A stretch of 62,980 bases of DNA, filler included, from Craspedostauros australis (GCA_030167865.1; 6 parts of 6 records of this genome joined end to end with filler, not necessarily neighbours in it); one strand, 5' to 3'; shown: positions 23,707 to 62,980, counted from the whole stretch's first letter. Notes: generated by a model from the sequence alone, not told the origin. Program-made: numbers and translations.

Positions 23707-23806
23707 NNNNNNNNNNNNNNNNNNNNNNNNNNNNNNNNNNNNNNNNNNNNTTAATTAATTAANNNNNNNNNNNNNNNNNNNNNNNNNNNNNNNNNNNNNN
23801 NNNNNN
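23707..23806. other. Artificial scaffolding linker 44N-TTAATTAATTAA-44N; also at 32164-32263, 44535-44634, 52348-52447 and 53889-53988
   Basis: Five identical 100-bp blocks with a six-frame stop cassette centred in Ns. Confidence 0.95.
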
Positions 23807-26800
23807 CTGGCCAGATGTACATAGGAATGATCAATTCGCGGGCAAACCAACGATGGTGGGCCATGGTATGGTCCCCAATGGGTGCGTTCCGAGTGGTTAT
23901 AGGCCGTCATTGCATATTTAAGGCGTCCTCCGGTCAAATTTGGTGATTCAAATGACAGTGAATATTCAGCGCCACTGAATATCGTGTTCTGGACAGAAGT
24001 GCATACAAATGATGGGTCCGCAAGCAAACCAACGATGGTGGGCCATGGTGTGGTCCCCCATGGGTGCGTTCCAAGTGATTATAGGCCGTCATTGCATATT
24101 TAAAGGGTCCTCCGGTCAAATTTGGTGATACACGCGAAGTTGGAAATTCAGCGCTACTGAATATCGTGTTCTGGCCAGAATTGCATAGGAATGATCAATG
24201 CGCGAGCAAACCAATGATGGTGGGCGACGGTATAGTCCTCGGTGGATGCGTTCCGAGTGGTTATAGGCTGTCATTGCATATTTAGGGGTGACTCCGTCCA
24301 ATTTCGTGATACATATGAAGGTGAATATTCAGCAACACTGAATATCGTGTTCTGGCCAGTTGTGCATAGGAATGATCAATGCGCGGGCAAACCAACGATA
24401 GTAGGCCATGATATGGTCCCCAATGGGTGCGTTCCAAGTGGTTATAGGCCGTCATTGCATATTTAAGGCGTCCTCCGGTCAAATTTGGTGATTCAAATGA
24501 CAGTGAATATTCAGCGCCACTGAATATCGTGTTCTGGACAGAAGTGCATACAAATGATGGGTCCGCAAGCAAACCAACGATGGTGGACCATGGTATGGTC
24601 CCCAATGGGTGCGTTCCGAGTGGTTATAGGTCGCCAATGCATATTTAGAGGTTCTGCGGTCAAATTTGGTGATTCATATGATGGTGAATATTCAGCGCCA
24701 CTGAATATCGTGTTCTGGCCAGAAGTGCATGGGATTGATCAATGCGCGAGCAAACCAATGATTGGGGACGATGGTATGGTCCCCAATGGGTGCGTTCCGA
24801 GTGGTTATAGNNNNNNNNNNNNNNNNNNNNNNNNNNNNNNNNNNNNNNNNNNNNNNNNNNCATTGCATATTTAGAGGTTCTGCGGTCAAATTTGGTGATT
24901 CATATGATGGTGAATATTCAGCAACACTGAATATCGTGTTCTGGACAGATGTACATAGGAATGATCAATTCGCGGGCAAACCAACGATGGGGGACGATGG
25001 TATGGTCCCCGGTGGGTGCGTTCCAAGTGGTTATAGGCCGTAATCGTATATTTAGAGGTCACTCCGTCCAATTTGGTGATACATTTGACAATGAATATTC
25101 AGCGCCGCTGAATATCGTGTTCTGGACAGATGTACATAGGAATGATCAATACGCGGGCAAACCAACGATGGTGGGCCATGGTATGGTCCCCGGTGGGTGC
25201 TTTCCGAGTAATTATAGGCCGCCAATGCATATTTAGAGGTTCTGCGGTCCAATTTGGTGATTCAAATGAAGGTGAATATTCAGCGCCACTGAATATCGTG
25301 TTCTGGCTAGATGTACATAGGAATGATCGATCCGCAAGCAAACCAACGATGGTGGGCCATGGTGTGGTCCCCCATGGGTGCGTTCCGAGTGTTTATAGGC
25401 CGCCAATGCATATTTAGAGGTTCTGCGGTCAAATTTGGTGATTCATATGACTGTGAATATTCAGCGCCACTGAATATCGTGTTCTGGACAGATGTACATA
25501 GGAATGATCNNNNNNNNNNNNNNNNNNNNNNNNNNNNNNNNNNNNNNNNNNNNNNNNNNACAGATGTACATAGGAATGATCAATACGCGGGCAAACCAAC
25601 GATGGTGGGCCATGGTATGGTCCCCGGTGGGTGCTTTCCGAGTGGTTATAGGCCGCCAATGCATATTTAGAGGTCTCTCCGGTCAAATTTCGTGATTCAT
25701 ATGACTGTGAATATTCAGCAACACTGAATATCGTGTTCTGGACAGAAGTGCATACAAATGATGGGTCCGCAAGCAAACCAACGATGGTGGGCCATGGTAT
25801 GGTCCCCAATGGGTGCGTTCCGAGTGGTTATAGGCCGTCATTGCATATTTAAGGGATCCTGCGGTCCAATTTGGTGATTCATATGATGGTGAATATTCAG
25901 CACCACTGAATATCGTTTTCTGGCTAGATGTACATAGGAATGATCGATCCACGATGAAACCAACGATGGTGGGCGATGGTATGGTCCACAATGGGTGCGT
26001 TCCGAGTGGTTACAGGCCGTAATTACATACTTATGGGTTCTGCGGTCAAATTTCGTGATTCATATGACAGTGAATATTCAGCAACACTGAATATCGTGTT
26101 CTGGACAGATGTACATAGGAATGATCCATTCGCGGGCAAACCAACGATGGTGGGCCATGGTATGGTCCCCAATGGGTGCGTTCCGAGTGGTTATAGGCCG
26201 CCAATGCATATTTAGAGGTTCTGCGGTCCAATTTGGTGATTCAAATGAAGGTGAATATTCAGCGCCACTGAATATCGTGTTCTGGCTAGATGTACATAGG
26301 AATGATCGATCCGCAAGCAAACCAACGATGGTGGGCCATGGTGTGGTCCCCAATGGGTGCGTTCCGAGTGGTTATAGGCCGCCAATGCATATTTATGGGG
26401 TCCTCCGGTCAAATTTGGTGATTCATATGACTGTGAATATTCAGCGCCACTGAATATCGTGTTCTGGACAGATGTACATAGGAANNNNNNNNNNNNNNNN
26501 NNNNNNNNNNNNNNNNNNNNNNNNNNNNNNNNNNTACATAGGAATGATCCATTCGCGGGCAAACCAACGATGGTGGGCCATGGTATGGTCCCCAATGGGT
26601 GCGTTCCGAGTGGTTATATACCGTCATTGCATATTTAGGGGTCTCTCCGTCCAATTTCGTGATACATATGATGGTGAATATTCAGCAACACTGAATATCG
26701 TGTTCTGGCCAGAATTGCATACAAATGATCGATCCGCAAGCAAACCAACGATAGTAGGCCATGGTATGGTCCNNNNNNNNNNNNNNNNNNNNNNNNNNNN

Positions 26801-29800
26801 NNNNNNNNNNNNNNNNNNNNNNTCCCCAATGGGTGCGTTCCAAGTGGTTATAGGCCGTCATTGCATATTTAAGGCGTCCTCCGGTCAAATTTCGTGATTC
26901 AAATGAAGGTGAATATTCAGCGCCACTGAATATCGTGTTCTGGACAGAAGTGCATACAAATGATGGGTCCGCAAGCAAACCAACGATGGTGGGCCATGGT
27001 ATGGTCCCCAATGGGTGCGTTCCGAGTGTTTATAGGCCGTCATTGCATATTTAGAGGTTCTGCGGTCAAATTTGGTGATTCATATGATGGTGAATATTCA
27101 GCAACACTGAATATCGTGTTCTGGCCAGAATTGCATAGGAATGATCAATACGCGGGCAAACCAACGATGGTGGGCCATGGTATGGTCCCCAATGGGTGCG
27201 TTCCGAGTGTTTATAGGCCGTCATTGCATATTTAAGGGATCCTGCGGTCCAATTTGGTGATTCATATGATGGTGAATATTCAGCAACACTGAATATCGTG
27301 TTCCGGACAGAAGTGCATACAAATGATGGGTCCGCAAGCAAACCAACGATGGTGGACCATGGTATGGTCCCCAATGGGTGCGTTCCGAGTGGTTATAGGC
27401 CGTCATTGCATATTTAAGGGATCCTGCGGTCCAATTTGGTGATTCATATGATGGTGAATATTCAGCAACACTGAATATCGTGTTCTGGCCAGATGTACAT
27501 AGGAATGATCAATGCGCGAGCAAGGCAACGATGGGGGACGATGGTATGGTCCCCCATGGGTGCGTTCCGAGTGTTTATAGGCCGTCATTGCATATTTAGA
27601 GGTTCTGCGGTCAAATTTGGTGATTCATATGATGGTGAATATTCAGCAACACTGAATATCGTGTTCTGGCCAGAATTGCATAGGAATGATCAATGCGCGA
27701 GCAAACCAACGATGGTGGGCCATGGTGTGGTCCCCGATGGGTGCGTTCCGAGTGGTTATAGGCCGTCATTGCATATTTAAGGCGTCCTCCGGTCAAATTT
27801 GGTGATTCATATGACTGTGAATATTCAGCACCACTGAATATCGTGTTCTGGACAGATGTACATAGGAATGATCAATGCGCGAGCAAGGCAACGATGGGGG
27901 ACGATGGTATGGTCCCCCATGGGTGCGTTCCGAGTGTTTATAGGCCGTCATTGCATATTTAGAGGTTCTGCGGTCAAATTTGGTGATTCATATGATGGTG
28001 AATATTCAGCAACACTGAATATCGTGTTCTGGCCAGATGTACATAGGAATGATCAATTCGCGGGCAAACCAACGATGGTGGGCCATGGTATGGTCCCCAA
28101 TGGGTGCGTTCCAAGTGGTTATAGGCCGTCATTGCATATTTAAGGGATCCTGCGGTCAAATTTGGTGATTCATATGATGGTGAATATTCAGCAACACTGA
28201 ATATCGTGTTCCGGACAGAAGTGCATACAAATGATGGGTCCGCAAGCAAACCAACGATGGTGGACCATGGTATGGTCCCCAATGGGTGCGTTCCGAGTGG
28301 TTATAGGCCGTCATTGCATATTTAAGGGATCCTGCGGTCCAATTTGGTGATTCATATGATGGTGAATATTCAGCACCACTGAATATCGTNTTCTGGCTAG
28401 ATGTACATAGGAATGATCGATCCACGATGAAACCAACGATGGTGGGCGATGGTATGGTCCACAATGGGTGCGTTCCGAGTGGTTACAGGCCGTAATTACA
28501 TACTTATGGGTTCTGCGGTCAAATTTCGTGATTCATATGACAGTGAATATTCAGCAACACTGAATATCGTGTTCTGGCCAGATGTACATAGGAATGATCG
28601 ATCCGCAAGCAAACCAACGATAGTAGGCCATGGTATGGTCCCCCATGGGTGCGTTCCGAGTGGTTATAGGTCGCCAATGCATATTTAGAGGTTCTGCGGT
28701 CAAATTTGGTGATTCATATGATGGTGAATATTCAGCGCCACTGAATATCGTGTTCTGGCCAGAAGTGCATGGGATTGATCAATGCGCGAGCAAACCAATG
28801 ATTGGGGACGATGGTATGGTCCCCAATGGGTGCGTTCCGAGTGGTTATAGGTCGCCAATGCATATTTAGAGGTTCTGCGGTCAAAATTAGTGATACAAAT
28901 GACTGTGAATATTCAGCGCCACTGAATATCGTGTTCTGGCCAGAATTGCATAGGAATGATCGATCCGCGAGCAAACCAACGATGGTGGACCGTGGTATGG
29001 TCCCCAATGGGTGTGTTCCGAGTGGTTATAGGTCGCCAATGCATATTTAGGGGTTCTGCGGTCAAATTTGGTGATTCATATGATGGTGAATATTCAGCAC
29101 CGCTGAATATCGTGTTCTGGCCAGAAGTGCATGGGATTGATCAATGCGCGAGCAAACCAATGATGGGGGACGATGGTATGGTCCCCAATGGGTGCGTTCC
29201 GAGTGGTTATAGGTCGCCAATGCATATTTAGAGGTTCTGCGGTCAAAATTAGTGATACAAATGACTGTGAATATTCAGCAACACTGAATATCGTGTTCTG
29301 GCCAGATGTACATAGGAATGATCAATGCGCGAGCAAGGCAACGATGGCGGACGATGGTATGGTCTCCCATGGGTGCGTTCCGACTGGTTATAGGCCGTCA
29401 TTGCACATTTAGGGGTTCTGCGGTCACAATTAGTGATACAAATGAAGGTGAATTTTCAGCGCCACTGAATATCGTGTTCTGGCCAGAAGTGCATACAAAT
29501 CATCGATCTTCAAGCAAATCAACGATGGTGGGCCATGGTGTGGTCCCCCATGGGTGCGCTCCAAGTGATTAAAGGTCGCCAATGCATATTTAAGGCGTCC
29601 TGCGGTCCAATTTGGTGATTCATATGACTGTGAATATTCAGCACCAGTGAATATCGTGTTCTGGCCAGAAGTGCATAGGAATGATCAATGCGCGAGCAAA
29701 CCAACGATGGCGGACGGTGGTATGGTCCCCCATGGGTGCGTTCCGAGTGGTTATAGGCCGTCATTGCACATTTAGGGGTTCTGCGGTCAAAATTGGTGAT

Positions 29801-32030
29801 TCATATGACTGTGAATATTCAGCACCACTGAATATCGTGTTCTGGCCAGATGTACATAGGAATGATCAATGCGCGAGCAAACCAACGATGGTGGGCCATG
29901 GTATGGTCCCCAATGGGTACGTTCCAAGTGGTTATAGGCCGTCATTGCACATTTAGAGGTTCTGTGGTCAAAATTGGTGATTCATATGATGGTGAATATT
30001 CAGCGCCACTGAATATCGTGTTCTGGACAGATGTACATAGGAATGATCAATGCGCGGGCAAACCAACGATGGTGGGCCATGGTATGGTTCTCAATGGGTG
30101 TGTTCCGAGTGGTTATAGGTCGCCAATGCATATTTAGAGGTCTCTCCGTCCAATTTCGTGATTCAAATGACAGTGAATATTCAGCGCCACTGAATATCGT
30201 GTTCTGGACAGAATTGCATAGGATTGCTCAATGCGCGAGCAAACCAACGATGGTGGGCCATGGTATGGTCCCCAATGGGTGCGTTCCGAGTGGTTATAGG
30301 CCGTCATTGCANNNNNNNNNNNNNNNNNNNNNNNNNNNNNNNNNNNNNNNNNNNNNNNNNNAGAATTGCATAGGAATGATCAATACGCGGGCAAACCAAC
30401 GATGGTGGGCCATGGTGTGGTCCCCAATGGGTGCGTTCCGAGTGGCTATAGACCGTAATTACATATTTATGGGATCCTGCGGTCAAATTTCGTGATTCAA
30501 ATGAAGGTGAATATTCAGCACCACTGAATATCGTGTTCTTGCCAGAAGTGCATAGGAATGATCGATCCACGATGAAACCAACAATGGAGGACGATGGTAT
30601 GGTCCCCGATGGGTGCGTTCCGAGTGGTTATAGGCCGTCATTGCACATTTAGGGATCCTGCGGTCAAATTTGGTGATTCAAATGAAGGTGAATATTCAGC
30701 GCCACTGAATATCGTGTTCTGGACAGAGGTGCATACAAATGATGGGTCCGCAAGCAAACCAACGATGGTGGGCCATGGTATGGGCCCCAATGGGTGCGTT
30801 CCGAGTGGTTATAGGTCGCCAATGCATATTTAGAGGTTCTGCGGTCAAATTTGGTGATTCATATGATGGTGAATATTCAGCACCACTGAATATCGTGTTC
30901 TGGACAGATGTACATAGGAATGATCAATTCGCGAGCAAACCAACGATGGTGGGCGATGGTATGGTCCCCAATGGGTGCGTTCCGAGTGGTCATAGGTCGC
31001 CAATGCATATTTAGAGGTCTCTCCGTCCAATTTCGTGATTCATATGATGGTGAATATTCAGTACCACTGAATATCGTGTTCTGGCCAGAATTGCATAGGA
31101 ATGATCAATACGCGGGCAAACCAACGATGGTGGGCCATGGTGTGGTCCCCAATGGGTGCGTTCCGAGTGGTTATAGGCCGTCATTGCATATTTAAAGGGT
31201 TCTGCGGTCAAATTTGGTGATACATATGACTGTGAATATTCAGCAGCGCTGAATATCGTGTTCTGGCCAGATGTACATAGGAATGATCAATGCGCGAGCA
31301 AACCAACGATGGTGGGCCATGGTATGGTTCCTCATGGGTACGTTCCAAGTGGTTATAGGTCGCCAATGCATATTTAGGGGTTCTGCGGTCCAATTTGGTG
31401 ATTCATATGACAGTGAATATTCAGCACCGCTGAATATCGTGTTCTGGCCAGATGTACATAGGAATGATCGATCCGCGAGCAAACCAACGATGGTGGTCCA
31501 TGGTATGGTCCCCAATGGGTGCGTTCCGAGTGGTCATAGGCCGTCATTACGTATTTATGGGATCCTCCGGTCAAATTTGGTGATGCACGCGAAGTTGAAT
31601 ATTCAGCACCCCTGAATATCGTGTTCTTGCCAGAAGTGCATAGGAATGATCGATCCACGATGAAACCAACAATGGAGGACGATGGCATGGTCCCCGATGG
31701 GTGCGTTCCGAGTGGTTATAGGCCGCCATTGCATATTTAAGCGTGCCTCCGCACAATTTCGTCACACACATGAAGCTGAATATTCAGCAACACTGAATAT
31801 CGTGTTCTGGCCAGAAGTGCATACAAATCATCGATCCTCAAGCAAACCAACGATGGTGGGCCATGGTGTGGTCCCCGATGGGCACGCTCCGAGTGGTTAT
31901 AGACCGTATTTGCATATTTATGGGATCCTCCGGTCCAATTTGGTCATGCACGCAATGGTGAATATTCAGCTCCTCGGTGTTTCGCGATTTTGCTACTCAT
32001 GCATGGGAATGACCAGTCCGAAGGCATGCA
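23807..32030. repeat. Satellite array, 181/182-bp monomer, about 45 copies, with internal 50-N gaps
   Basis: TGAATATTCAGCRMCACTGAATATCGTGTTCTGG recurs every 181-182 bp (ORF echoes at 24949/25130/25311/25492 and 27221/27403). The last unit decays at ~31970-32030. Confidence 0.98.
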
Positions 32031-32382
32031 ACCGATCGGGACCCATCCAATGCCTTTCCGTCGGCATATTCCGTGGGTTTGTACGCTTTCTTTTCTTGCG
32101 TAAGGGGTTGAAACCTTCATGTTCCTCGTACACACGATGACACCGATCGTCGAACGCCACTGTNNNNNNNNNNNNNNNNNNNNNNNNNNNNNNNNNNNNN
32201 NNNNNNNTTAATTAATTAANNNNNNNNNNNNNNNNNNNNNNNNNNNNNNNNNNNNNNNNNNNNCCCAACCTTTTCCGAGTCAGAGTCCAACAGGCTGATC
32301 AAGACGGATTCATTGAACGACGAAGGGCGTTCGTTGTCCGCAGAGCTAGAAGACAACTTCCTGGTGGAAGCTGCACCAGATC

Positions 32383-44138: not shown

Positions 44139-44655
44139 GCGTCGCGAATCGGTGGAGAATGCCTCGTGAATCTGCCGGCTTCGGGATAGCCGTGTGATGC
44201 AGTTCAAGAGAGGTGTGCTGTTTGAATAGTTATAACTTGTAACGATGAGAAGTAGAGTGCTTTGTAGCTAATCCTTGTCCGTTATTATGAGTTAGCTTAT
44301 TGGTGTTAGTAGGGTGAAGAAACGATGCCACACAACTTGGCGAGACCCTGCACTGATGCACTTGATTCAGTGCANNNNNNNNNNNNNNNNNNNNNNNNNN
44401 NTTGCTCTCCGCACATGTAGTTACACTGCAGTGTAGGTCATGACAATCAGTGGTGACGGTCATGAAGCAGTGGCTGTGGCTGAAGCTGACACTCGGATTC
44501 CATTGCTTGAGTTGAAGCAAGTTGGATACGCATGNNNNNNNNNNNNNNNNNNNNNNNNNNNNNNNNNNNNNNNNNNNNTTAATTAATTAANNNNNNNNNN
44601 NNNNNNNNNNNNNNNNNNNNNNNNNNNNNNNNNNACACAAAGCAAGATCACTTAC

Positions 44656-52240: not shown

Positions 52241-54174
52241 GCTGAATGATCGGCCTTCATCCTGTGCTCTCCTTACCTCACTTCCTCTCAGACCAGTTCA
52301 TCACATCCAACAAGCAAACAGCACTACTCTCCAGCAACAACTCCACCNNNNNNNNNNNNNNNNNNNNNNNNNNNNNNNNNNNNNNNNNNNNTTAATTAAT
52401 TAANNNNNNNNNNNNNNNNNNNNNNNNNNNNNNNNNNNNNNNNNNNNGTTTCCTACTGATCGACAGTTTGGGGGTCATGCGTACAGACGGATGTTTTGTC
52501 ATGTACATAGCACCAGAATGAATTGACGATCGTGTGGTTCCGTTTCTGTTCCCGTTCCTGTCCCACCAAAAGACGCGCCGAATTGGTTGCATCTGGCAGG
52601 CGTGCTTCATGACCGTCGCAACGAAACGTCAGGAGAGCGAGACGAAATGATTGGACTGAGAATCAAATGATGACGTTTGATAGTGTCAACAACGAAATCA
52701 AGTGAACAATCATCTCATTTTGAATGTGAACCTGCATCATACACGTATCACGCATGTAGACATTATGTAGACAAGTCCTTTTGAGGACGAACTCTATTGT
52801 AGGACGTGACGCAAGCCAATATGTAAACTGAACACCCTTGCTCCAAAGTGATGATGAGCGAGAGGGTTCCACCATTTCCCTCCCCCAGCTTCCTCACTAC
52901 CACCCAGAAGACTACAGTCACTTCACTGTTTCATCAATGCTCTACTTCTGAGGTTCGAAATGATGGTGTCATATATATACCTCACTGATTATAACTGTTA
53001 AGTTATGCGCTGGGGGGNGCTTTGATTCTGCCTTGTTTATTCTCCATGTCTGCACGCAGTGGGAACGGATGTGTCAGTATTATGATCGTGTTGGGAGAGA
53101 GGGCTGTGTCCATTGGGCAGGTCTGTTTGCTGGCGATGTTGTGGTGGCAGGGGAATCGTCTCAGGGTGCGATCCGCCTATAGTTCCATTTCCAGTTCACA
53201 AGCACTGCCGTGGCTGGTGGCACATTGCCTCCAAGGCCTTGGTGCATGGCTTGGACCCACGGAATGAGCTGGGCGGTCTGCTCAGTGTGCGGANNNNNNN
53301 NNNNNNNNNNNNNNNNNNNNNNNNNNNNNNNNNNNNNNNNNNNGGCTTGGACCCACGGAATGAGCTGGGCGGTCTGCTCAGTGTGCGGATGATGCTCCCA
53401 AAGTGGGTGCAGGACTGCAGGGATGGTAGTTGGCGGGCATATTCGCAGCATCTGAAAATATTGGAGCAGCACGGGCGTCGTGTCATTGGAAGTCTGGGAC
53501 GCTTTGACCTTGGTCTGGTCCTGCCATTGCATCAGTGTCATGTGCCACATGAGGTTGGTGACACTGTNNNNNNNNNNNNNNNNNNNNNNNNNNNNNNNNN
53601 NNNNNNNNNNNNNNNNNNNNNNNNNNNNNNNNNNNNNNNNNNNNNNNNNNNNNNNNNNNNNNNNNNNNNNNNNNNNNNNNNNNNNNNNNNNNNNNNNNNN
53701 NNNNNNNNNNNNNNNNNNTCGCGAACGCCAGAGAGATGATGGTGTCAACATGGCTTGGATCCAACACCTGATGTCGAACAGTGTGGACAAGACTATCCAC
53801 AAATGTCTAACACAACCATCAACCATGTTGTTGATCACAGCATCACTCTCCATCATCATCTCAGTCTGAGGATGCATTGAACTGGAACNNNNNNNNNNNN
53901 NNNNNNNNNNNNNNNNNNNNNNNNNNNNNNNNTTAATTAATTAANNNNNNNNNNNNNNNNNNNNNNNNNNNNNNNNNNNNNNNNNNNNGCCACCCCTGGA
54001 ACCTGTCGTGGTGACAACCAGTGGGGATCTCTCCCCAAATGTTCGCATTCGTGTTGGATCTTGGAGGGACTGGATTTAGTCTGTGTAGTCGTACATGTGG
54101 GTCGTGATTGATGCCTACCTTCGTGCTTCAGCAGATATCGTTGGCGCCACATTTCCATCCCGAAGCCGTACGAG

Positions 54175-55548
54175 ATGATGGCAAACTATTTCTTGTTGTT
54201 CTCCTGTGCGGGGGCACGATACTTTTGGTCCACACATTCTCCCTGCCTCCTCCTGCCTATCTTCCCTCGCCTATTTGCTGCGTTTCAGTTCCGCTTGAGT
54301 GCTTCTCTCTTCCCTTCGTCACCTTCTCTTCGCATGCCTCGCCGCGTCTGGAACTGTCTTCCCGAGCGTCAGGCTTGCTCTGAGGCAAAGGATATGTTCA
54401 TCGACGCGGCCACATGGCTGTCACAGGTCCACATCGACGAACTTGACGACGACGACATCGAGACCTTCGTCCAGCACTTCGGCAACGTCATGGCCCTCGG
54501 GATCCATGCTTTGCGATTGCAGCGCCAATACCTTCTCCCCATGCAGCCACCTCGGCGTCATTCAAATCGCGGCGTCACCATTCGTCAGATCCGCGATGGA
54601 GAGGATATCGACCACTTTCGGTTCCGCAAGGACCATCTGCGACGGTTGGTCGTTGCCTTTTGGCCCAAATTTCAGGCTGTATCCGGTGAGCAAGACCCCA
54701 CCTCCATAGAGGTCAAGAACCGTTTGACGGTCTCCTTTGAAGTTGGCTTCCTGATCATGATCTATCGATTGGCGCATCGAGGTCGGTTTTGCGACATGGA
54801 GGACCGTTTTGACATGGATGTCAATCGGCTTTCGTGCATCTGTGGCACCTTCTTTTTCTACTTTCATGCCATTGCAGCTCCATACCTCAGCGACCTGGGG
54901 TTGTTCCAGCCTCGGTTCGCCTCTTACGCTCACAACGTCAGTGTGCTCACAAAGGACTTGGTGGACAACATTATTGGATTCGTCGATGGGACATTCAGTG
55001 CAACATGTCGGCCGACGTACAACCAACGGATGGCATACTCTGGGCACAAGCACATGCACGGAATTAAGTTCCAGGGTATTGTTGGTGCAGATGGCTTGAT
55101 CCTGCATTATTATGGTCCTATCCTTGGAAGCCGCCATGATTCCTTCATGCTCCGCGAGAGTGGCGTCGAGCCGCGGATGAGAGAATTGATGCCACTTCCA
55201 GGGTTCCAAAGGCCATACCGTTTGTACGGTGATCCAGCATATGCCACAACAGCATACGTGCTTGGTGCATTTCGAAACACAGTTGAGGGTTCCCCTGAAG
55301 CTCTGTGCAACAGGGACATGTCCTCTGCGCGAATCTGCGTCGAATGGGAGTTCATGGAGATTGGTAAATCGTTTCCCTTCCTCGATGTGAAGAACCAAAT
55401 GAAAATCTATTGGAACCCCCTCACACACATGCACTACATTGCGGCATTCCTCACAAACTTCCGTTGCATCTTCTATGGCAATGAACAATCTGCACGGTAT
55501 ACTTCTGCAAAGCTCACAGCAGAGGAGTACCTTGCCTTGGTACCATGA
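54175..55548 (+). CDS. Harbinger/HARBI1-like DDE transposase (DDE_Tnp_4)
   Basis: FRFRKDHL, HTH region LIMIYRLAHRGRFCDMEDRF, IIGFVDGT (D), YSGHKHMHGIKFQ, GSRHDS, LYGDPAY (D), NRDMSSARICVEWEF (E). The triad is intact. Alternative start at 54334 (MPRRV). Confidence 0.93.
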   Translation: MMANYFLLFSCAGARYFWSTHSPCLLLPIFPRLFAAFQFRLSASLFPSSPSLRMPRRVWNCLPERQACSEAKDMFIDAATWLSQVHIDELDDDDIETFVQHFGNVMALGIHALRLQRQYLLPMQPPRRHSNRGVTIRQIRDGEDIDHFRFRKDHLRRLVVAFWPKFQAVSGEQDPTSIEVKNRLTVSFEVGFLIMIYRLAHRGRFCDMEDRFDMDVNRLSCICGTFFFYFHAIAAPYLSDLGLFQPRFASYAHNVSVLTKDLVDNIIGFVDGTFSATCRPTYNQRMAYSGHKHMHGIKFQGIVGADGLILHYYGPILGSRHDSFMLRESGVEPRMRELMPLPGFQRPYRLYGDPAYATTAYVLGAFRNTVEGSPEALCNRDMSSARICVEWEFMEIGKSFPFLDVKNQMKIYWNPLTHMHYIAAFLTNFRCIFYGNEQSARYTSAKLTAEEYLALVP

Positions 55549-55899
55549 ATCACATCAACTAGTCTGATACACATAATACATATTTAGGCTCTGGCTATAT
55601 TCAAATTCTCTCTCCATCTTGCGTGGGATGCTCCACGGTTGATTGGTTAGATAGTCAGCAGTGCCAGTGAAGTCAGCGGCTACGACCATGCAGCAAATAC
55701 CGATCCACTACCATGTGTTCTGCCATGGATGGATTGGCAACACCAGCAGCAGCTTCGGTGGCCTTGCATTCCACAATCCATGGATGTGCAGCAACAGCAA
55801 CCACGGCGAAGACTGTGACGACCATGCTGTGCCATGTGCCGCCGTTGCTCCTCATCCATCATTTGTAGATTGGATTGGACAGAGACAGTGACGGAGGCA

Positions 55900-58800
55900 T
55901 GTCCAGCCGCGCGCACCATGTGGGGTCCATCGGCGTCAGTGCTCCTCCACCATCTAAGGATCAACAGTGGCGACGGCAGCGACGATCGAGTGGAGCATGC
56001 CATGCGCCATCATCACTGCTCCTCCATCATCCATTGATTGGCAGCGACGATGGCAGTGACGATGGCAGGGACGATCGCGCAGACCATGTGATGCGCTGCC
56101 ATCTCTGCTCCTCCACCCAGGGATCGGCAACAACGATGGCAGTGACGATGGTGGGGACGATCGTGCCGAACATTCGATGCGCCACCATCTCTGCTCCTCC
56201 ATTCATGGATCCGCAACGACGATGACAGACACGATGACAGGGACGATTGTGCCGAACATTCGATGCGCCGCCATCTCTGCTCCTTCACTCATGGATCGGC
56301 AACGACGATGGCCGCGGCGATGGCAGGGATGATTGTGCTGAACATTCGATGCGCCACCATCTCTGCTCCTCCATTCATGGATCCGCAACGACGATAGCAG
56401 ACACGATGGTGGGGACGATCGTGCCGAACATTCGATGCGCCGCCATCTCTGCTCCTCCACCCAGGGATCGGCAACAACGATGGCAGTGACGATGGTGGAG
56501 ACGATCGTGCCGAACATTCGATGCGCCACCATCTCTGCTCCTCCACCCAGGGATCGGCAACGACGATGGCAGTGACGATGGTGGGGACGATTGTGCCGAA
56601 CATTCGATGCGCCACCATCTCTGCTCCTCCATTCATGGATCCGCAACGACGATGGCAGTCACGATGGCAAGGACAATCGCGCGAAACATTCGATGCGCCT
56701 CCATCTCTGCTCCTCCATTCATGGATCCGCAACGACGATAGCAGACACGATGGTGGGGACGATTGTGCCGAACATTCGATGCGCCACCATCTCTGCTCCT
56801 CCATTCATGGACCCGCAACGACGATAGCAGACACGATGGTGGGGACGATCGTGCCGAACATTCGATACGCTGCCATCTCTGCTCCTCCACCCAGGGATCG
56901 GCAACGACGATGGCAGTGACGATGGCAGGGACGATTGTGCCGAACATTCGATGCGCCACCATCTCTGCTCCTCCATTCATGGATCCGCAACGACGATAGC
57001 AGACACGATGGTGGGGACGATCGTGCCGAACATTCGATGCGCCNCCATCTCTGCTCCTCCACCCAGGGATCGGCAACNACGATNGCAGNNACGATGGTGN
57101 NGACGATCGTGCCGAACATTCGATGCGNCACCATCTCTGCTCCTCCANNCANGGANCNGCAACGACGATNGCAGNNACGATGGTGGGGACGATTGTGCCG
57201 AACATTCGATGCGCCACCATCTCTGCTCCTCCATTCATGGATCCGCAACGACGATGGCAGTCACGATGGCAAGGACAATCGCGCGAAACATTCGATGCGC
57301 CTCCATCTCTGCTCCTCCATTCATGGATCCGCAACGACGATAGCAGACACGATGGTGGGGACGATTGTGCCGAACATTCGANNNNNNNNNNNNNNNNNNN
57401 NNNNNNNNNNNNNNNNNNNNNNNNNNNNNNNCATCTCTGCTCCTCCATTCATGGATCCGCAACGACGATAGCAGACACGATGGTGGGGACGATCGTGCCG
57501 AACATTCGATGCGCCACCATCTCTGCTCCTCCACCCAGGGATCGGCAACGACGATAGCAGACACGATGGTGAGGACGATCGTGCCGAACATTCGATGCGT
57601 CACCATCTCTGCTCCTCCATTCATGGACCCGCAACGACGATAGCAGACACGATGGTGGGGACGATTGTGCCGAACATTCGATGCGCCACCATCTCTGCTC
57701 CTCCATTCATGGATCCGCAACGACGATGGCAGTCACGATGGCAAGGACAATCGCGCGAAACATTCGATGCGCCTCCATCTCTGCTCCTCCATTCATGGAT
57801 CCGCAACGACGATAGCAGACACGATGGTGGGGACGATTGTGCCGAACATTCGATGCGCCACCATCTCTGCTCCTCCATTCATGGATCCGCAACGACGATG
57901 GCAGTCACGATGGCAAGGACAATCGCGCGAAACATTCGATGCGCCACCATCTCTGCTCCTCCATTCATGGATCGGCAACGACGATGGCAGTCACGATGGC
58001 AGGGACGATTGTGCCGAACATTCGATGCGCCACCATCTCTGCTCCTCCACCCAGGGATCGGCAACGACGATAGCAGTGACGATGGTGGGGACGATCGTGC
58101 CGAACATTCGATGCGTCACCATCTCTGCTCTTCCACTCATGGATCGGCAAGGACGATGGCCGCGGCGATGGTAGCGATGATGGCAGGGATGATTGTGCCG
58201 AACATTCGATGCGCCGCCATCGCTCCTCCTCCATTCATAGATCTGCAACGACGATGGCAGTCACGATGGCAGGGACGATCGCGCGGAACATTCGATGCGT
58301 CACCATCTCTGCTCTTCCACTCATGGATCGGCAAGGATGATGGCCGCGGCGATGGCAGTGACGATATGATGGCAGGGATGATTGTGTTGAACATTCGATG
58401 CGCCACCATCTCTGCTCCTCCACCCAGGGATGGGCAATGATGATGGCCGCAGCGATGGCAGTGATGATTGTGCCGAACATTCGATGCGCCACCATCTCTG
58501 CTCCTTCACTCATGGATCGGCAAGGACAATGGCAGTCACGATGGCAGTGACGATGGTGGGGAACATTCGATGCGCCACCATCTCTGCTCCTTCACTCATG
58601 GATCGGCAATGATGATGGCCGCGGCGATGGCATTGACGATGGTGCCGAACATTCGATGCGGCACCATCTCTGATCCTTCACTCATGGATTGGCAAGGACG
58701 ATGGCGACGACGATGGTAGACACGATGGCAGGGATGATTGTGTCGAACATTCGATGCGCCACCATCTCTGCTCCTCCACCCAGGGAGCGGCAATGATGAT

Positions 58801-60450
58801 GGCCGCGGCGATGGCAGTGATGATTGTGCCGAACATTCGATGCGCCATCATCTCTGCTCCTTCACTCATGTATCGGCAAGGATGATGGCCGCGACGATGG
58901 CCGCGACGATGGCAGACACGATGACAGGGACGATCGCGCGGAACATTCGATGCGTCACCATCTCTGCTCCTTCACTCATAGATCGGCAAGGACAATGGCA
59001 GTCACGATGGCAGTGACGATGGTGGGGAACATTCGATGCGCCACCATCTCTGCTCCTTCACCCATGGATCGGCAGTGACGATGGCCGCGGCGATGGCAGT
59101 GACGATGGTGCCGAACATTCGATGCGCCACCATCTCTGCTCCTTCACCCATGGATCGGCAGTGACGATGGCCGCGGCGATGGCAGTGACGATGGTGCCGA
59201 ACATTCGATGCGTCACCATCTCTGATCCTTCACTCATGGATTGGCAACGACGATGACCGTGGCGATGGTAGACACGATGGCAGGGATGATTGTGTCAAAC
59301 ATTCGATGCGCCACCATCTCTGCTCTTACACCCAGGGATGGGCAATGATGATGGCCGCGGCGATGGCAGGATGATTGTGCCGAACATTCGATGCGTCACC
59401 ATCTCTGCTCCTTCACTCATGGATCAGCAAGGATGATGGCAGTCACGATGGCAGTGACGATGGTGCCGAACATTCGATGCGCCACCATCTCTGATCCTCC
59501 ACTCATGGATTGGCAAGGACGATGGCCGTGGTGATGGTAGACACGATGGCAGGGATGATTGTGTCGAACATTTGATGCGCCACCATCTCTGCTCCTCCAC
59601 CCAGGGAGCGGCAATGATGATGGCCGCGGCGATGGCAGGATGATTGTGCCGAACATTCGATGCGCCACCATCTCTGCTCCTTCACTCATGGATCCGCAAC
59701 AACGATGGCAGTCACGATGGCAGTGACGATGGTGGGGAACATTCGATGCGCCACCATCTCTGCTCCTTCACCCATGGATCGGCAAGGACAATGGCAGTCA
59801 CGATGGCAGTGACGATGGTGGGGAACATTCGATGCGTCACCATCTCTGCTCCTCCACCCAGGGATCGGCAATGATGATGGCCGCGGCGATGGCAGTGACG
59901 ATGGTGCCGAACATTCGATGCGTCACCATCTCCGATCCTCCACCCAGGGATCGGCAAGGACGATGGCGGCGGCGATGGTAGACACGATGGCAGGGATGAT
60001 TGTGTCGAACATTCGATGCGCCACCATCTCTGCTCCTCCACCCAGGGAGCGGCAATGATGATGGCCGCGGCGATGGCAGTGACGATCGCGCGGAACATTC
60101 GATGCGTCACCATCTCCGATCCTCCACCCAGGGATCGGCAAGGACGATGGCCGCGGCGATGGTAGACACGATGGCAGGGATGATTGTGCCAAACATTCGA
60201 TGCGCCACCATCTCTGCTCTTCCACTCATGGATCGGCAGGGATGATGGCAGTCACGATGGCAGGGACGATCGCGCGGAACATTTGATGCGCCGCCATCGC
60301 TCCTCCTCCATCACCCATGGATCAGCAAGGACGGCAGTAGCAGTGATAATGGCGACGATCGTGCGGAACATTCGATGCGCTGCCATCTCTGCTCTTCCTT
60401 CACCCATGGATCGGCAGCGACGATGGCAGTGGCGATGGCAGCGACGATCG
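55900..60450. repeat. Modular tandem array, about 50 units of 86 bp with 98- and 110-bp variants
   Basis: Core GAACATTCGATGCGCCACCATCTCTGCTCC at 58561, 58647, 58745, 58831, 58941, 59027, 59113, 59199, 59297 etc. (spacings 86/98/86/110/86/86/86/98). Decayed copies at both edges. Confidence 0.98.
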
Positions 60451-60837
60451 CGCGCGACAAACCAATTCCTCACTGCGCGTCGGTTGTGGATGAATCGATG
60501 GCATCAGTGGGTTGCCACATCGGGAACGCGTCCTGTGCAGCAGAGACACGTCCGCTGCATGATATTGCAGGCGCGGGATACTGATTGCTGGCGGCGGCGG
60601 CGGTGAAGGTAGTGTCCAAGCGTAGACTTGGCTATGGTTTCGTGTCCTGTCTCAAACAGATTCAGGTTTACGCTGTTGAGGGGCACCTTGCTCATGCAAC
60701 ACAACCTGCAGCACCGGATGAGGAATATGAGATTTTGTGTGTGATGCATTGGTTACATGTTATTGTGGGCACACTGATTGGAGCGATCACTGTGGCCATG
60801 TAGTAACCTGTGGCTGGTATGGATGCATGAAAGTGTA

Positions 60838-60915
60838 ATGATGTATGCGATGATGTATGTGATGATGTATGCGATGATGTATGCAATGATGGATGTGATG
60901 ATGAGTGTGATGATG
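60838..60915. repeat. 12-bp minisatellite (ATGATGTATGYR), 6.5 copies
   Basis: Units start at 60838, 60850, 60862, 60874, 60886, 60898 and 60910. Confidence 0.9.
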
Positions 60916-61111
60916 CCTTTGACGAATGCATGGAGGATGCCCTTGGTGTATGTAGCTGATGCATGAAGTGATGATGAAAGTGATGACGCATTTTGGGAAA
61001 GCTGGGAAAATGGACTTGATGTTGCGAGGGGATGGAAGGAGCGAGGGTATCACGAAGGTGCCAATGCAGATGTTAGAACTGACGTAACAGATGCACAGAA
61101 TGAAGATTTTC

Positions 61112-62584
61112 TCAATCCTCATTGGCCCCCTGCGACTGATTTGACATGATCCCCACCAGAGCCGAAAGGCTAGCAGCAATGCTGGTCTGCTGCGCAATGA
61201 CCTCGCGGTTGTGCTTGTCGATCTTCTCCTGTTGGAGAATCTGCTGGCAGTTCATTGCCTGAAGCATCTGTTCCTGTTGCTTCAGAGCAGCGAGAATGGG
61301 AGATTTGCCTGAGGAGGCTTCTGAATCTTCATTTTCCATTCTGTTTGAGGGGGTGGCCTTGCTCTGTTCCTGGCACACTTGAACTAGATCCACTGGCGCT
61401 GTGATGGAGCCAGTGGTCTTCTTGGTATCGAGTCTCTTCACCAGAGATGCGTGAGACTTCTGAATTGCATCCGCAAGGAGGAGTGTGTTTCGATGATCCT
61501 CCATTGCGTCCCTCAAGGTGGCTCTTGGTTTCCTCTCCTTCTTGCGACAAGGGGGTGGGGTCTTGGCTTTCGCTGTCTTCTCAACCTTGACGATGGTGTT
61601 GGACTTTGAGTTGGGAGCCACAAGGATTGGCCCTCGCTTCCCCAACATTTGCTCCAACATGTTTGCTGTCACCAGCTTCTCTTCGTCAGCTTGCACCTGT
61701 TGTTTGTGTTCATTGGTGTTGTACGAACAGAGGAGTTCATCCAATTCGGTCAACTTCTTGAGGTAGTCACTGTAGGGCTCGTTACCACCTGTGCGGTGTC
61801 CATGCGCCTGAATGTACCTGCGAACGAATACCATGAGGTATTCAAAGCGCTCAAGCAAGCCTCTTGACCGAGGAGGCTTCGTCAATCGCAACACTGACTT
61901 TGAAAAAAGATGATTGCTCACCGCCTTCCAGTATTGACCGGATGGAGCCAACCATGGCTTGGGGTCGTTTGCCCAGATGTAGGCCATCATGGTTGAATCA
62001 ATGGGCCTGGGTGTCTCCAACCAAGGGTAGAAGGGAGGATCGTCCACACAGTACTCCAGGTAGAGATACACACGTGGTTTCCCTTTTGCAATTTTCTTGG
62101 TGCTGGACGGAGATTTGGAGTTTGCACGAGGCTTGGCGGTGGTGGAAGCCATGGCGATGCCTGATGATTTGGGGTTGGGGCTATTGTTGAGGCTGGCATG
62201 GAGGACAAGGGATCCCACGTCTTTCTCTGCAGCAGAGGCTGTGGAAGCGGCAACAGCACGGTAGGCCCTTGCAGCGCTTCTGGAATTGCGACGTCGAGTA
62301 TCCGAAGGAAGGTCTGAGACAGATCCCCCAACTGATGACGCAAAGTTACAAGCACCAGTGTCGCCTCCCTCGTCCAGTAGTCCGCAGGGCAAGACAACGG
62401 GCCCTGTTGCTTTCTTGCCCAAGGAGAAGTCACGAGAGACACCCTGGACGGATTTGAAGGGAGAAACAGGACCAGCGACTGTCAAGGTGGCAGCCGAAGT
62501 GCCTGTCGGTGTGATGCTGTTGGCTTCATCGCTGTCATCAGAGGATAACATGCCAAGGAGACTAGGCTGGAAGGGGGATGCCAT
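61112..62584 (-). CDS. Harbinger accessory protein with Myb/SANT (trihelix)-like DNA-binding domain and C-terminal Q-rich coiled coil
   Basis: DSTMMAYIW...P..W...YWKAVSNHL...RGLLERFEYL...RTGGNEPY...LTELDELL pattern, basic KKERKPR, tail LKQQEQMLQ...LSALVGIM. Convergent with the transposase. Confidence 0.7.
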   Translation of the reverse strand: MASPFQPSLLGMLSSDDSDEANSITPTGTSAATLTVAGPVSPFKSVQGVSRDFSLGKKATGPVVLPCGLLDEGGDTGACNFASSVGGSVSDLPSDTRRRNSRSAARAYRAVAASTASAAEKDVGSLVLHASLNNSPNPKSSGIAMASTTAKPRANSKSPSSTKKIAKGKPRVYLYLEYCVDDPPFYPWLETPRPIDSTMMAYIWANDPKPWLAPSGQYWKAVSNHLFSKSVLRLTKPPRSRGLLERFEYLMVFVRRYIQAHGHRTGGNEPYSDYLKKLTELDELLCSYNTNEHKQQVQADEEKLVTANMLEQMLGKRGPILVAPNSKSNTIVKVEKTAKAKTPPPCRKKERKPRATLRDAMEDHRNTLLLADAIQKSHASLVKRLDTKKTTGSITAPVDLVQVCQEQSKATPSNRMENEDSEASSGKSPILAALKQQEQMLQAMNCQQILQQEKIDKHNREVIAQQTSIAASLSALVGIMSNQSQGANED

Positions 62585-62888
62585 GGTGGTTCGATGGTGT
62601 GGGGTATTGCTTGAAAGTCAGAAGGTGAAACGGCTGGAATGTAGTAAGATGAGAGATGGAGGTCAGGCAGGTTGGATGCTGTTGTGTTTGGAAATCCAAA
62701 TCAGATGCAACAAAAGTCCGATGTGATGCCACGAGACCTTTTCCAGATGGAGTATGGGTGTCGTCGTCCTCTTTTTTGTTTGATGTCGCCGTGTGCCAAC
62801 AAAAACGTTCGCACAAGGCGTAAAACGTGAAGGAGGCTAGGCTATTCCAAGAACAACGAAGATGCGAACCGCAACCACTTCAGACGAT

Positions 62889-62949
62889 ATGATTGGAGAA
62901 AGAAATGTCGGCGTTCATACGTTACGCGTGGAGTTCGTATTTGGCGGGA
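62889..62949 (-). promoter_or_regulatory. Putative promoter of the accessory ORF: E2F-like site (TTTGGCGGGA on +) and CCAAT box
   Basis: ATGATTGG at 62889-62896 and TTTGGCGGGA at 62940-62949, about 310-365 bp upstream of ATG 62584. Confidence 0.35.
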
Positions 62950-62980
62950 CTCTTCAAATTACATGCCATGTCAAACGAAA

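What the first reader, a model, noticed from the sequence alone, without database searches (positions are those of the whole stretch)
53989..62980. Intact Harbinger-type transposon whose two genes converge on a ~4.5-kb modular repeat array
Seen in sequence: an intact DDE transposase (+) and a Myb/SANT-like ORF (-) point at ~50 well-conserved units that fill most of the 5.5 kb between their stop codons. Established: PIF/Harbinger elements use a transposase plus a Myb-like protein that binds repeated motifs, normally subterminal ones. Plant VANDAL elements use internal tandem repeats as targets for their own anti-silencing proteins. Inference: the array may be a functional third component, such as an accessory-protein landing pad or anti-silencing platform, or a bidirectionally transcribed source of repeat RNAs. 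This is the best candidate for an undescribed system here. The neutral alternative is a satellite born inside a TE.
Basis: partly seen in the sequence, partly recalled or inferred. Interest (0 to 1): 0.8.

Follow-up and report, generated by a model that had tools for sequence, protein, structure and literature searches.

The report
Pangu transposon with swollen repeat spacer
This is a recently copied two-gene "cut-and-paste" transposon of a known type whose gap between the two genes has filled with about 50 tandem repeats; relatives carry different repeats or none there, so the array is likely a tolerated passenger rather than a new working part.

Summary
Observation confirmed. An intact DDE_Tnp_4 transposase (54334-55548, +) and a 491-aa ORF2 (62587-61112, -) face each other across about 50 units of 86 bp (55993-60453). 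ORF2 has a predicted Myb/trihelix-like fold (weak). The window holds a collapsed contig; the genome has two identical insertions. TIRs start AG and target duplications are ANT (57 of 67 termini, 0 TWA), so this is a ~9.1-kb Pangu-type PHIS element, not PIF/Harbinger sensu stricto. Tail-to-tail genes are normal for the group. The 86-mer occurs only in this element. Two related lineages carry different arrays at the same spot (15-bp; GGAT-based), so the spacer is a repeat hotspot. But most relatives have 0.29-0.44-kb spacers without arrays, including a recently copied family. Array-free 1.4-kb derivatives outnumber array-bearing copies at least 9 to 2. Each family's repeated subterminal motif, the likely ORF2 site, is absent from its array. 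The array has no ORF, no Rfam match and no consistent folding signal, and shows local-duplication signatures. Best reading: neutral spacer expansion (0.65); VANDAL-like landing pad about 0.13, untested. Side finding: elements of this clade sit end-to-end sharing one ANT at 5 or more sites.

The parts
53989..54333 (+). Left subterminal region and 5' leader; the first 25 bp of the element (TIR starting AGGGAG) lie just outside the contig
   Evidence: Identical ends in C1243 and C1242 continue 25 bp to the TIR and an ATT / AGT flank
54334..55548 (+). DDE transposase, 404 aa, catalytic D218, D300, E337
   Evidence: Pfam DDE_Tnp_4 E 2e-17; invariant D/D/E in alignment A2; 100% identical in three contigs
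55549..55700 (.). AT-rich 60 bp after the transposase stop (likely termination zone, inferred) plus short unique spacer
   Evidence: 67-70% AT in 55549-55608
55701..55992 (+). Four decayed edge units of the array
   Evidence: nhmmer with unit profile, E 2e-5 to 0.37
55993..60453 (+). Tandem array of about 50 units of 86 bp (85-110), containing a 50-N gap at 57382-57431; left and right sub-types
60454..61111 (.). Unique right spacer with a small 12-bp repeat (60838-60915)
   Evidence: sequence
61112..62587 (-). ORF2 accessory protein, 491 aa; conserved helical core at about 61790-62030 with predicted Myb/SANT/trihelix-like fold
   Evidence: homologues beside the transposase in 18 other own-genome loci and 3 metagenome contigs
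62588..62950 (-). ORF2 leader/promoter region (inferred)
   Evidence: position upstream of ORF2
62951..62980 (.). One arm of a perfect 30-bp hairpin carrying an inner copy of the TIR motif; the other arm and the right TIR lie 1-121 bp beyond the window

Best explanation
This is an intact, recently copied Pangu-type cut-and-paste transposon of about 9.1 kb, and its 86-bp array is likely a selectively tolerated tandem expansion of the spacer between the two gene ends rather than a working part. Shown: two open genes tail to tail, AG-starting TIRs, ANT target duplications, two identical insertions, and an array confined to this element. Inferred from PIF/Harbinger biology: ORF2 binds the short motif repeated at the ends (GCATGTAA at +12 of both ends, and at +99 inverted and +136 of the right end) and brings in the DDE transposase, which excises the element and inserts it at A-W-T sites. 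Inferred: the spacer is the only stretch that is neither coding, promoter nor terminus, and it is strand-biased and GATGG-rich. Short seeds there grow by slippage, unequal exchange or template slips during gap repair, and do so separately in different lineages.
For: (1) Spacers in relatives with clean ORF2 and no array are 288-439 bp (10 of 19 loci measured; 5 carry arrays; 4 have a broken ORF2 and unreliable values). Whole array-free elements are 4.1 kb (C4655, C5522). One array-free family has two copies 98.8-99.5% identical. (2) At least 9 left ends of a 1.42-kb array-free derivative against 2 array-bearing ones; its outer 180 bp are 97-99% identical to this element's right end; two complete copies have matched TSDs AAT/AAT and ACT/ACT. 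(3) Four families repeat a family-specific motif at 124-125 bp spacing in the right end. For the three array-bearing families the own 8-bp motif occurs 0 times, even with one mismatch, in the own array. k-mers shared between termini and unit are not clearly above shuffles (6-mers p 0.05, 7-mers 0.16, 8-mers 0.17). (4) Unit identity falls with distance (0.89-0.90 for near neighbours, 0.83-0.85 at 20+ units); 9 identical unit pairs; left and right sub-types; decayed edges. (5) Array length is labile: about 0.24, 0.31, 0.8, over 1.0 and about 2.0 kb among copies of the sister family; 0.33, 0.45, 1.3 kb in the GGAT lineage, whose compact cousins hold a 25-60-bp seed. (6) No long ORF, no Rfam match, folding z from -2.4 to +0.4, with 1 of 11 folds below -2. 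(7) 3 of 80 metagenome loci with a recognisable ORF2 homologue have 22-465-bp spacers.
Against: Arrays recur at the same spot in three lineages: this one, its 74%-identical sister (15-bp unit) and the 55%-identical C5711 lineage. Of 8 regions with arrays of 200 bp or more in 323 kb of fetched element-plus-flank DNA, 6 are these spacers, so the site is special. All three arrays are GATGG-rich on the transposase strand (19-37 per kb against 1.5 in host DNA). The first third of the unit has fewer common variants than column shuffles (p 0.01; anti-conservative, and the two invariant-column tests were not significant). The decayed edges mean the array has persisted a long time in an element that still moves, at double the normal length. 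Sister-family derivatives that lost ORF2 kept their array. Array-free non-autonomous copies do not test a role in expression of the autonomous copy.
Confidence: 0.65

Rival explanations
1. The array is a family-specific landing pad for ORF2 (or ORF2 plus transposase) that would counter host silencing, as VANC targets do in VANDAL elements; arrays and ORF2 DNA-binding domains would diverge together.
For: Different arrays in related families at one position. The ORF2 core diverges faster than the transposase (56% vs 74-78% with the sister). VANC targets are tandem repeats that differ between related TEs (PMC5735166 passages). Domesticated Harbinger pair HDP1/HDP2 acts in anti-silencing (PMC9710019 passage; PMC5339849 listing). 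Array CpG o/e is 1.11, not depleted.
Against: Most relatives have no array yet are intact and recent. The family's terminal motif is absent from the array. There is no third, VANC-like gene. The array lies over 1.3 kb from either gene start. CpG o/e is equally high (about 1.0-1.3) in most compact spacers.
Confidence: 0.13
2. The array lies in the 3' untranslated part of one or both transcripts (most likely ORF2) and acts at RNA level: as a source of double-stranded or small RNAs, or as a stability, termination or collision buffer that tunes activity.
For: Convergent layout. The only AT-rich, terminator-like stretch is just after the transposase stop. Spacers are G-skewed on the transposase strand across most families (0.3-0.5), as if they belong to one transcription unit (inference). 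Each unit holds a short internal inverted match.
Against: No consistent folding excess over shuffles; no Rfam match; array-free relatives; no conserved unit sequence or length between lineages (86-mer vs 15-mer alignment p about 0.08).
Confidence: 0.12
3. The array is a mildly selfish or mutation-driven satellite seed that uses the transposon as a vehicle and could later spread as free satellite DNA.
For: Ongoing local amplification; TE-derived satellites are documented (PMC5932611 passages).
Against: No free copies: all 38 core matches of the 86-mer and all 22 matches of the sister 15-mer pattern lie in contigs carrying the respective element.
Confidence: 0.06
4. The length and modular pattern are largely an assembly artefact: a shorter array, or arrays of two copies, merged across the gap.
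For: The contig is a collapse of at least two copies, with a 50-N gap and ambiguous bases.
Against: About 16 units are contiguous with the transposase and about 34 with ORF2 without a gap; most units differ from each other; both flanked copies run into the array identically to 56201.
Confidence: 0.04

Closest known systems
Pangu group of the PHIS superfamily (Han et al. 2015, PMC4482050; ANT-targeting 'Harbinger' of Ectocarpus, PMC12477816)
   Same: ANT TSD; TIR starting AG; DDE_Tnp_4 transposase of about 400 aa; second ORF without a Pfam hit; tail-to-tail genes.
   Different: About 9.1 kb against a mean of about 3.5 kb and at most 7,867 bp in the 29 of 34 families seen in Table S3; the excess is the internal array.
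PIF/Harbinger sensu stricto (e.g. Harbinger3_DR)
   Same: Transposase plus Myb/SANT-type partner; short motifs repeated in subterminal regions; MITE-like deletion derivatives.
   Different: TSD is ANT, never TWA (0 of 67).
VANDAL/VANC anti-silencing system of Arabidopsis (PMC5735166)
   Same: Family-specific, length-labile tandem repeats in non-coding DNA of a DNA transposon.
   Different: VANDALs are Mutator-like (recalled) and encode a dedicated third protein; binding and demethylation are shown there and untested here; most relatives here lack an array.
TE-internal tandem arrays such as Helitron/DINE-1 central repeats and Tetris (recalled, from no call)
   Same: A tandem array nested in a mobile element and carried with it.
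   Different: Here it sits between two intact convergent genes of an autonomous element, and no free satellite copies were found.

Membership tests
Pangu (PHIS) | 3-bp ANT target-site duplication | tested here: met
   57 of 67 distinct termini of the clade are flanked by ANT; matched pairs in two complete derivatives. For the autonomous copies ATT/ATT and AGT/AGT are paired by inference; no empty allele found.
Pangu (PHIS) | Short TIRs (11-40 bp) beginning AG or GG | tested here: met
   19-bp TIR beginning AGGGAG at both ends
Pangu (PHIS) | DDE transposase plus a second ORF, usually without a recognised domain | tested here: met
   DDE_Tnp_4; ORF2 has no Pfam hit
Pangu (PHIS) | Transposase falls in the Pangu clade | not tested
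   No named reference transposases were held; the tree (quick method) has only own-genome and unnamed database rows
PIF/Harbinger sensu stricto | TWA target-site duplication | tested here: not met
   0 of 67 termini
PIF/Harbinger sensu stricto | ORF2 with Myb/SANT/MADF domain | tested here: inconclusive
   No Pfam or PDB sequence hit. Conserved W..PW..W..RF pattern. Model pLDDT 76; best matches Sap1 DBD Z 7.1 (rmsd 3.4, 100 aligned), GT-1 trihelix 5.4, ISWI 5.2, NgTRF Myb 5.2, Zeste 5.0, all under Z 8; Foldseek E > 0.8
ISL2EU | 2-bp AT TSD; THAP domain; YqaJ exonuclease ORF2 | tested here: not met
   3-bp ANT TSD; no THAP or YqaJ Pfam hit
VANDAL-type anti-silencing system | Element-encoded protein binds a motif amplified in tandem repeats | not testable with these tools
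   Indirect only: the family's repeated terminal motif is absent from its array
VANDAL-type anti-silencing system | Dedicated anti-silencing gene besides the transposition genes | tested here: not met
   Only two long ORFs in the element
VANDAL-type anti-silencing system | Loss of DNA methylation and derepression | not testable with these tools
   No methylation or expression data available

The most novel reading that the evidence does not exclude
The tail-to-tail spacer of these Pangu elements is a second, fast-evolving binding platform for the Myb-like ORF2. Lineages under host silencing amplify family-specific GATGG-containing arrays there to keep their own copies expressed: a two-gene, non-plant parallel of VANDAL/VANC and the mobile ancestor state of HDP1/HDP2-type anti-silencing.
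Probability: 0.13. Interest if true: 0.75.

Novelty: new member of a known kind. Interest (0 to 1): 0.33.

Why it matters
As it most likely stands, this is an apparently active, unusually long Pangu element and a clean natural series of tandem-array growth inside a transposon (seed, 0.3 kb, 1.3 kb, 2 kb, 4.5 kb at one site in three lineages). That is useful for satellite-birth studies and as a possible algal gene-transfer tool. If ORF2 did bind the array and protect the element, it would show sequence-specific anti-silencing by a still-mobile Harbinger-superfamily pair outside plants. Array-bearing and array-free sister families in one genome make that directly testable.

Tried and rejected
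Sequencing runs: no run was listed for the array stretch; no RNA holder listed, so no read mapping was done. ORF2 homologue searches in the large protein sets found none; the ESM Atlas gave only unnamed or phage clusters at low recognition, rejected as leads; the PDB sequence search gave only designed helical bundles, E > 1. The first metagenome scan with the single protein found nothing; the alignment scan found 87, of which 80 were kept; short-read contigs break at arrays, so these under-report arrays. Empty-site searches for both insertions found only the occupied locus. CpG as a signal: arrays are CpG-rich but so are compact spacers; transitions at CpG sites 45/628 against 61/1147 at other C/G, no clear methylation-decay signal. 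Common origin of the 86-mer and the 15-mer: suggestive (29 of 33 weak non-self nhmmer hits fall in the sister family, all E > 0.09) but not significant (p about 0.08), so two or three independent origins remain open. The window array matches another family's terminal 8-mer with one mismatch in 42 units; this is one site per unit among six cross comparisons and was taken as chance. Coding role of the arrays rejected for the 86-mer (not a multiple of 3; no long ORF); the sister 15-mer gives open low-complexity frames, as any stop-free 15-mer would. Apparent array relative in C4959 is unrelated low-complexity DNA. The careful tree did not finish; the quick tree was used. No earlier scan findings. 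No protein-complex prediction was run.

Full report
Observation. The region 53989-62980 carries a 404-aa ORF (54334-55548, +) matching DDE_Tnp_4 (E 2e-17) with intact D218/D300/E337 motifs, and an open 491-aa ORF2 (62587-61112, -). The stop codons are 5563 bp apart. TRF and direct parsing give 49 anchored units of 85-110 bp, 35 of exactly 86 bp, from 55993 to 60453, and four decayed units back to 55701. A 50-N gap and scattered Ns mean the real length is uncertain. The stretch is one entire contig (C5934) between N-linkers, so the rest of the window is probably not its true neighbourhood.

What the element is. Two other contigs hold the left 2.2 kb and two hold the right 1.1 kb with no difference from the window, each running into different single-copy flanks. 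The ends are 19-bp TIRs starting AGGGAG; left flanks ATT and AGT match right flanks ATT and AGT. This gives two identical insertions of about 9.14 kb; the pairing is inferred from the duplications. Across 67 distinct termini of the clade in fetched DNA, 57 are flanked by ANT and none by TWA. Han et al. (PMC4482050; parts 1-2 of 4 of the text and 29 of 34 Pangu rows of Table S3 read) define Pangu by ANT TSDs, AG/GG-starting TIRs and a second ORF mostly without a known motif. The Ectocarpus TE paper (PMC12477816, passages) says all its autonomous Harbingers have tail-to-tail genes and that ANT-targeting ones are Pangu. Convergence is therefore ordinary; length is not (mean about 3.5 kb, longest row seen 7,867 bp). 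Placement by phylogeny was not tested.

ORF2. No Pfam, PDB-sequence or protein-database hit. Homologues lie tail to tail with the transposase in 18 other own-genome loci and in 3 of 80 metagenome loci. A 13-row alignment shows an invariant W..PW..W..RF pattern. The model (pLDDT 76) best matches Sap1, GT-1 trihelix, ISWI, a telomeric Myb and Zeste DNA-binding domains (Z 7.1-5.0). This fits a Myb/SANT-type partner but is below the tool's confidence level.

Does the array recur? Yes, in part. Of 19 loci with both genes measurable, 5 carry arrays: this element (4.6 kb), the 74%-identical sister C6669 (2.0 kb of a 15-bp unit) and the 55%-identical C5711 lineage (1.3, 0.45 and 0.33 kb of GGAT-type repeats). 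Ten have 288-439-bp spacers with at most a 60-bp seed. Four have a broken ORF2 and were set aside. In the quick tree this element and C6669 are sisters, and C5711 nests among compact families, giving two or three origins; homology of 86-mer and 15-mer is not significant. Each array is private to its element (38 of 38 and 22 of 22 pattern matches). In 323 kb of fetched DNA, 6 of 8 regions with arrays of 200 bp or more are such spacers (these six represent two lineages).

Is it needed? Array-free whole elements of 4.1 kb exist, and one array-free family has two copies 98.8-99.5% identical. A 1.42-kb non-coding derivative with near-identical ends (97-99% over 180 bp) gives at least 9 typed left ends against 2 array-bearing ones. 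This is a lower bound, as only part of the 113 terminal matches was fetched. It shows the array is not needed in cis for movement, assuming the same transposase moves both, but it does not test a role in expression.

Where would ORF2 bind? In Harbinger3_DR the Myb-like protein binds a 9-bp subterminal motif (PMC9710019 passage). Here the right end repeats an inner-TIR motif in direct and inverted copies, forming a perfect 30-bp hairpin. Three other families repeat their own, different motif at the same 124-125-bp spacing. Variable sequence with fixed geometry is what a protein-binding array should look like (inference). In none of the three array-bearing families does that motif occur in the array.

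Array behaviour. Identity decays with distance, identical units cluster, left and right halves have different majority types, and edges are decayed: the pattern of local duplication and homogenisation. Sister-family arrays range from about 0.24 to 2 kb. There is no ORF, no Rfam match and no consistent folding excess (10 single units and one 4-unit stretch; z -2.4 to +0.4). CpG content is like that of compact spacers. Against pure neutrality: the first third of the unit carries fewer common variants (p 0.01 in one of three tests), all arrays share a GATGG strand bias (also present at lower density in compact spacers), and the array has persisted in an active element. VANC targets are also labile, family-specific tandem repeats (PMC5735166 passages), so lability alone does not exclude function.

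Literature. Searches for Harbinger or PHIS elements with internal arrays listed no paper describing one, judged from listings; a C. inopinata Harbinger preprint has no occurrence of 'tandem' in its main text (its supplements could not be seen). The library lacks most subscription papers and Repbase entries, so this is weak evidence of novelty. TE-internal arrays in general are well known (recalled).

Verdict. A real, intact, recently active Pangu-type element with an unusually large spacer array. Neutral expansion at a permissive, repeat-prone site 0.65; ORF2 landing pad or anti-silencing 0.13; RNA-level role 0.12; others 0.10. New member of a known kind; interest 0.33. The end-to-end insertion pattern noted in passing may be the more surprising feature of this clade.

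Noticed in passing
G000 C789:11414-11442, C3188:516-544, 1311-1318 and 1877-1905, C3537:1682-1710, C4822:593-621, C414 (L006:1158): Elements of this clade sit end to end, TIR against TIR, sharing one ANT: 5 exact junctions genome-wide (control 0) among about 113 terminal matches (control 6), plus two more in fetched loci. C3188 is a chain of four elements with three different TIR types. Random choice of ANT sites would give far less than one such junction (my estimate). This suggests targeting of kin termini, perhaps through proteins bound at resident ends. Double insertion at one site is described for P elements and others (PMC5932611 passages); searches listed nothing for PHIS elements.
   Followed up: partly
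window 62951-62980 and L070:6621-6771; L058, L080, L091 right ends: Right ends of four families repeat a family-specific inner-TIR motif at a fixed 124-125-bp spacing, mostly with an inverted copy between; here it forms a perfect 30-bp hairpin at which many contigs break.
   Followed up: partly
window 61112-62587 vs 54334-55548, and relatives: ORF2 is CpG-poorer than the transposase gene in nearly all families (o/e 0.55 vs 0.93 here); cause unknown.
   Followed up: no
window 23807-31970: A separate 8-kb satellite of 181-182-bp units (about 45 copies, several gaps), near nucleosome repeat length, on its own contig.
   Followed up: no
flanks of 47 non-junction termini: Target preference beyond ANT: middle base nearly always A or T (41 of 47), with C (26 of 47) and A (22 of 47) at the two bases outside the duplication.
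   Followed up: partly
L064, L109, L012, L214: Sister-family derivatives share one deletion that removes ORF2 but keeps the 15-bp array and the right end, and the transposase side where assembled.
   Followed up: partly
window 23707-23806, 32164-32263, 44535-44634, 52348-52447, 53889-53988: The window is a concatenation of contigs joined by N44-TTAATTAATTAA-N44 linkers; adjacency across them is probably artificial.
   Followed up: yes
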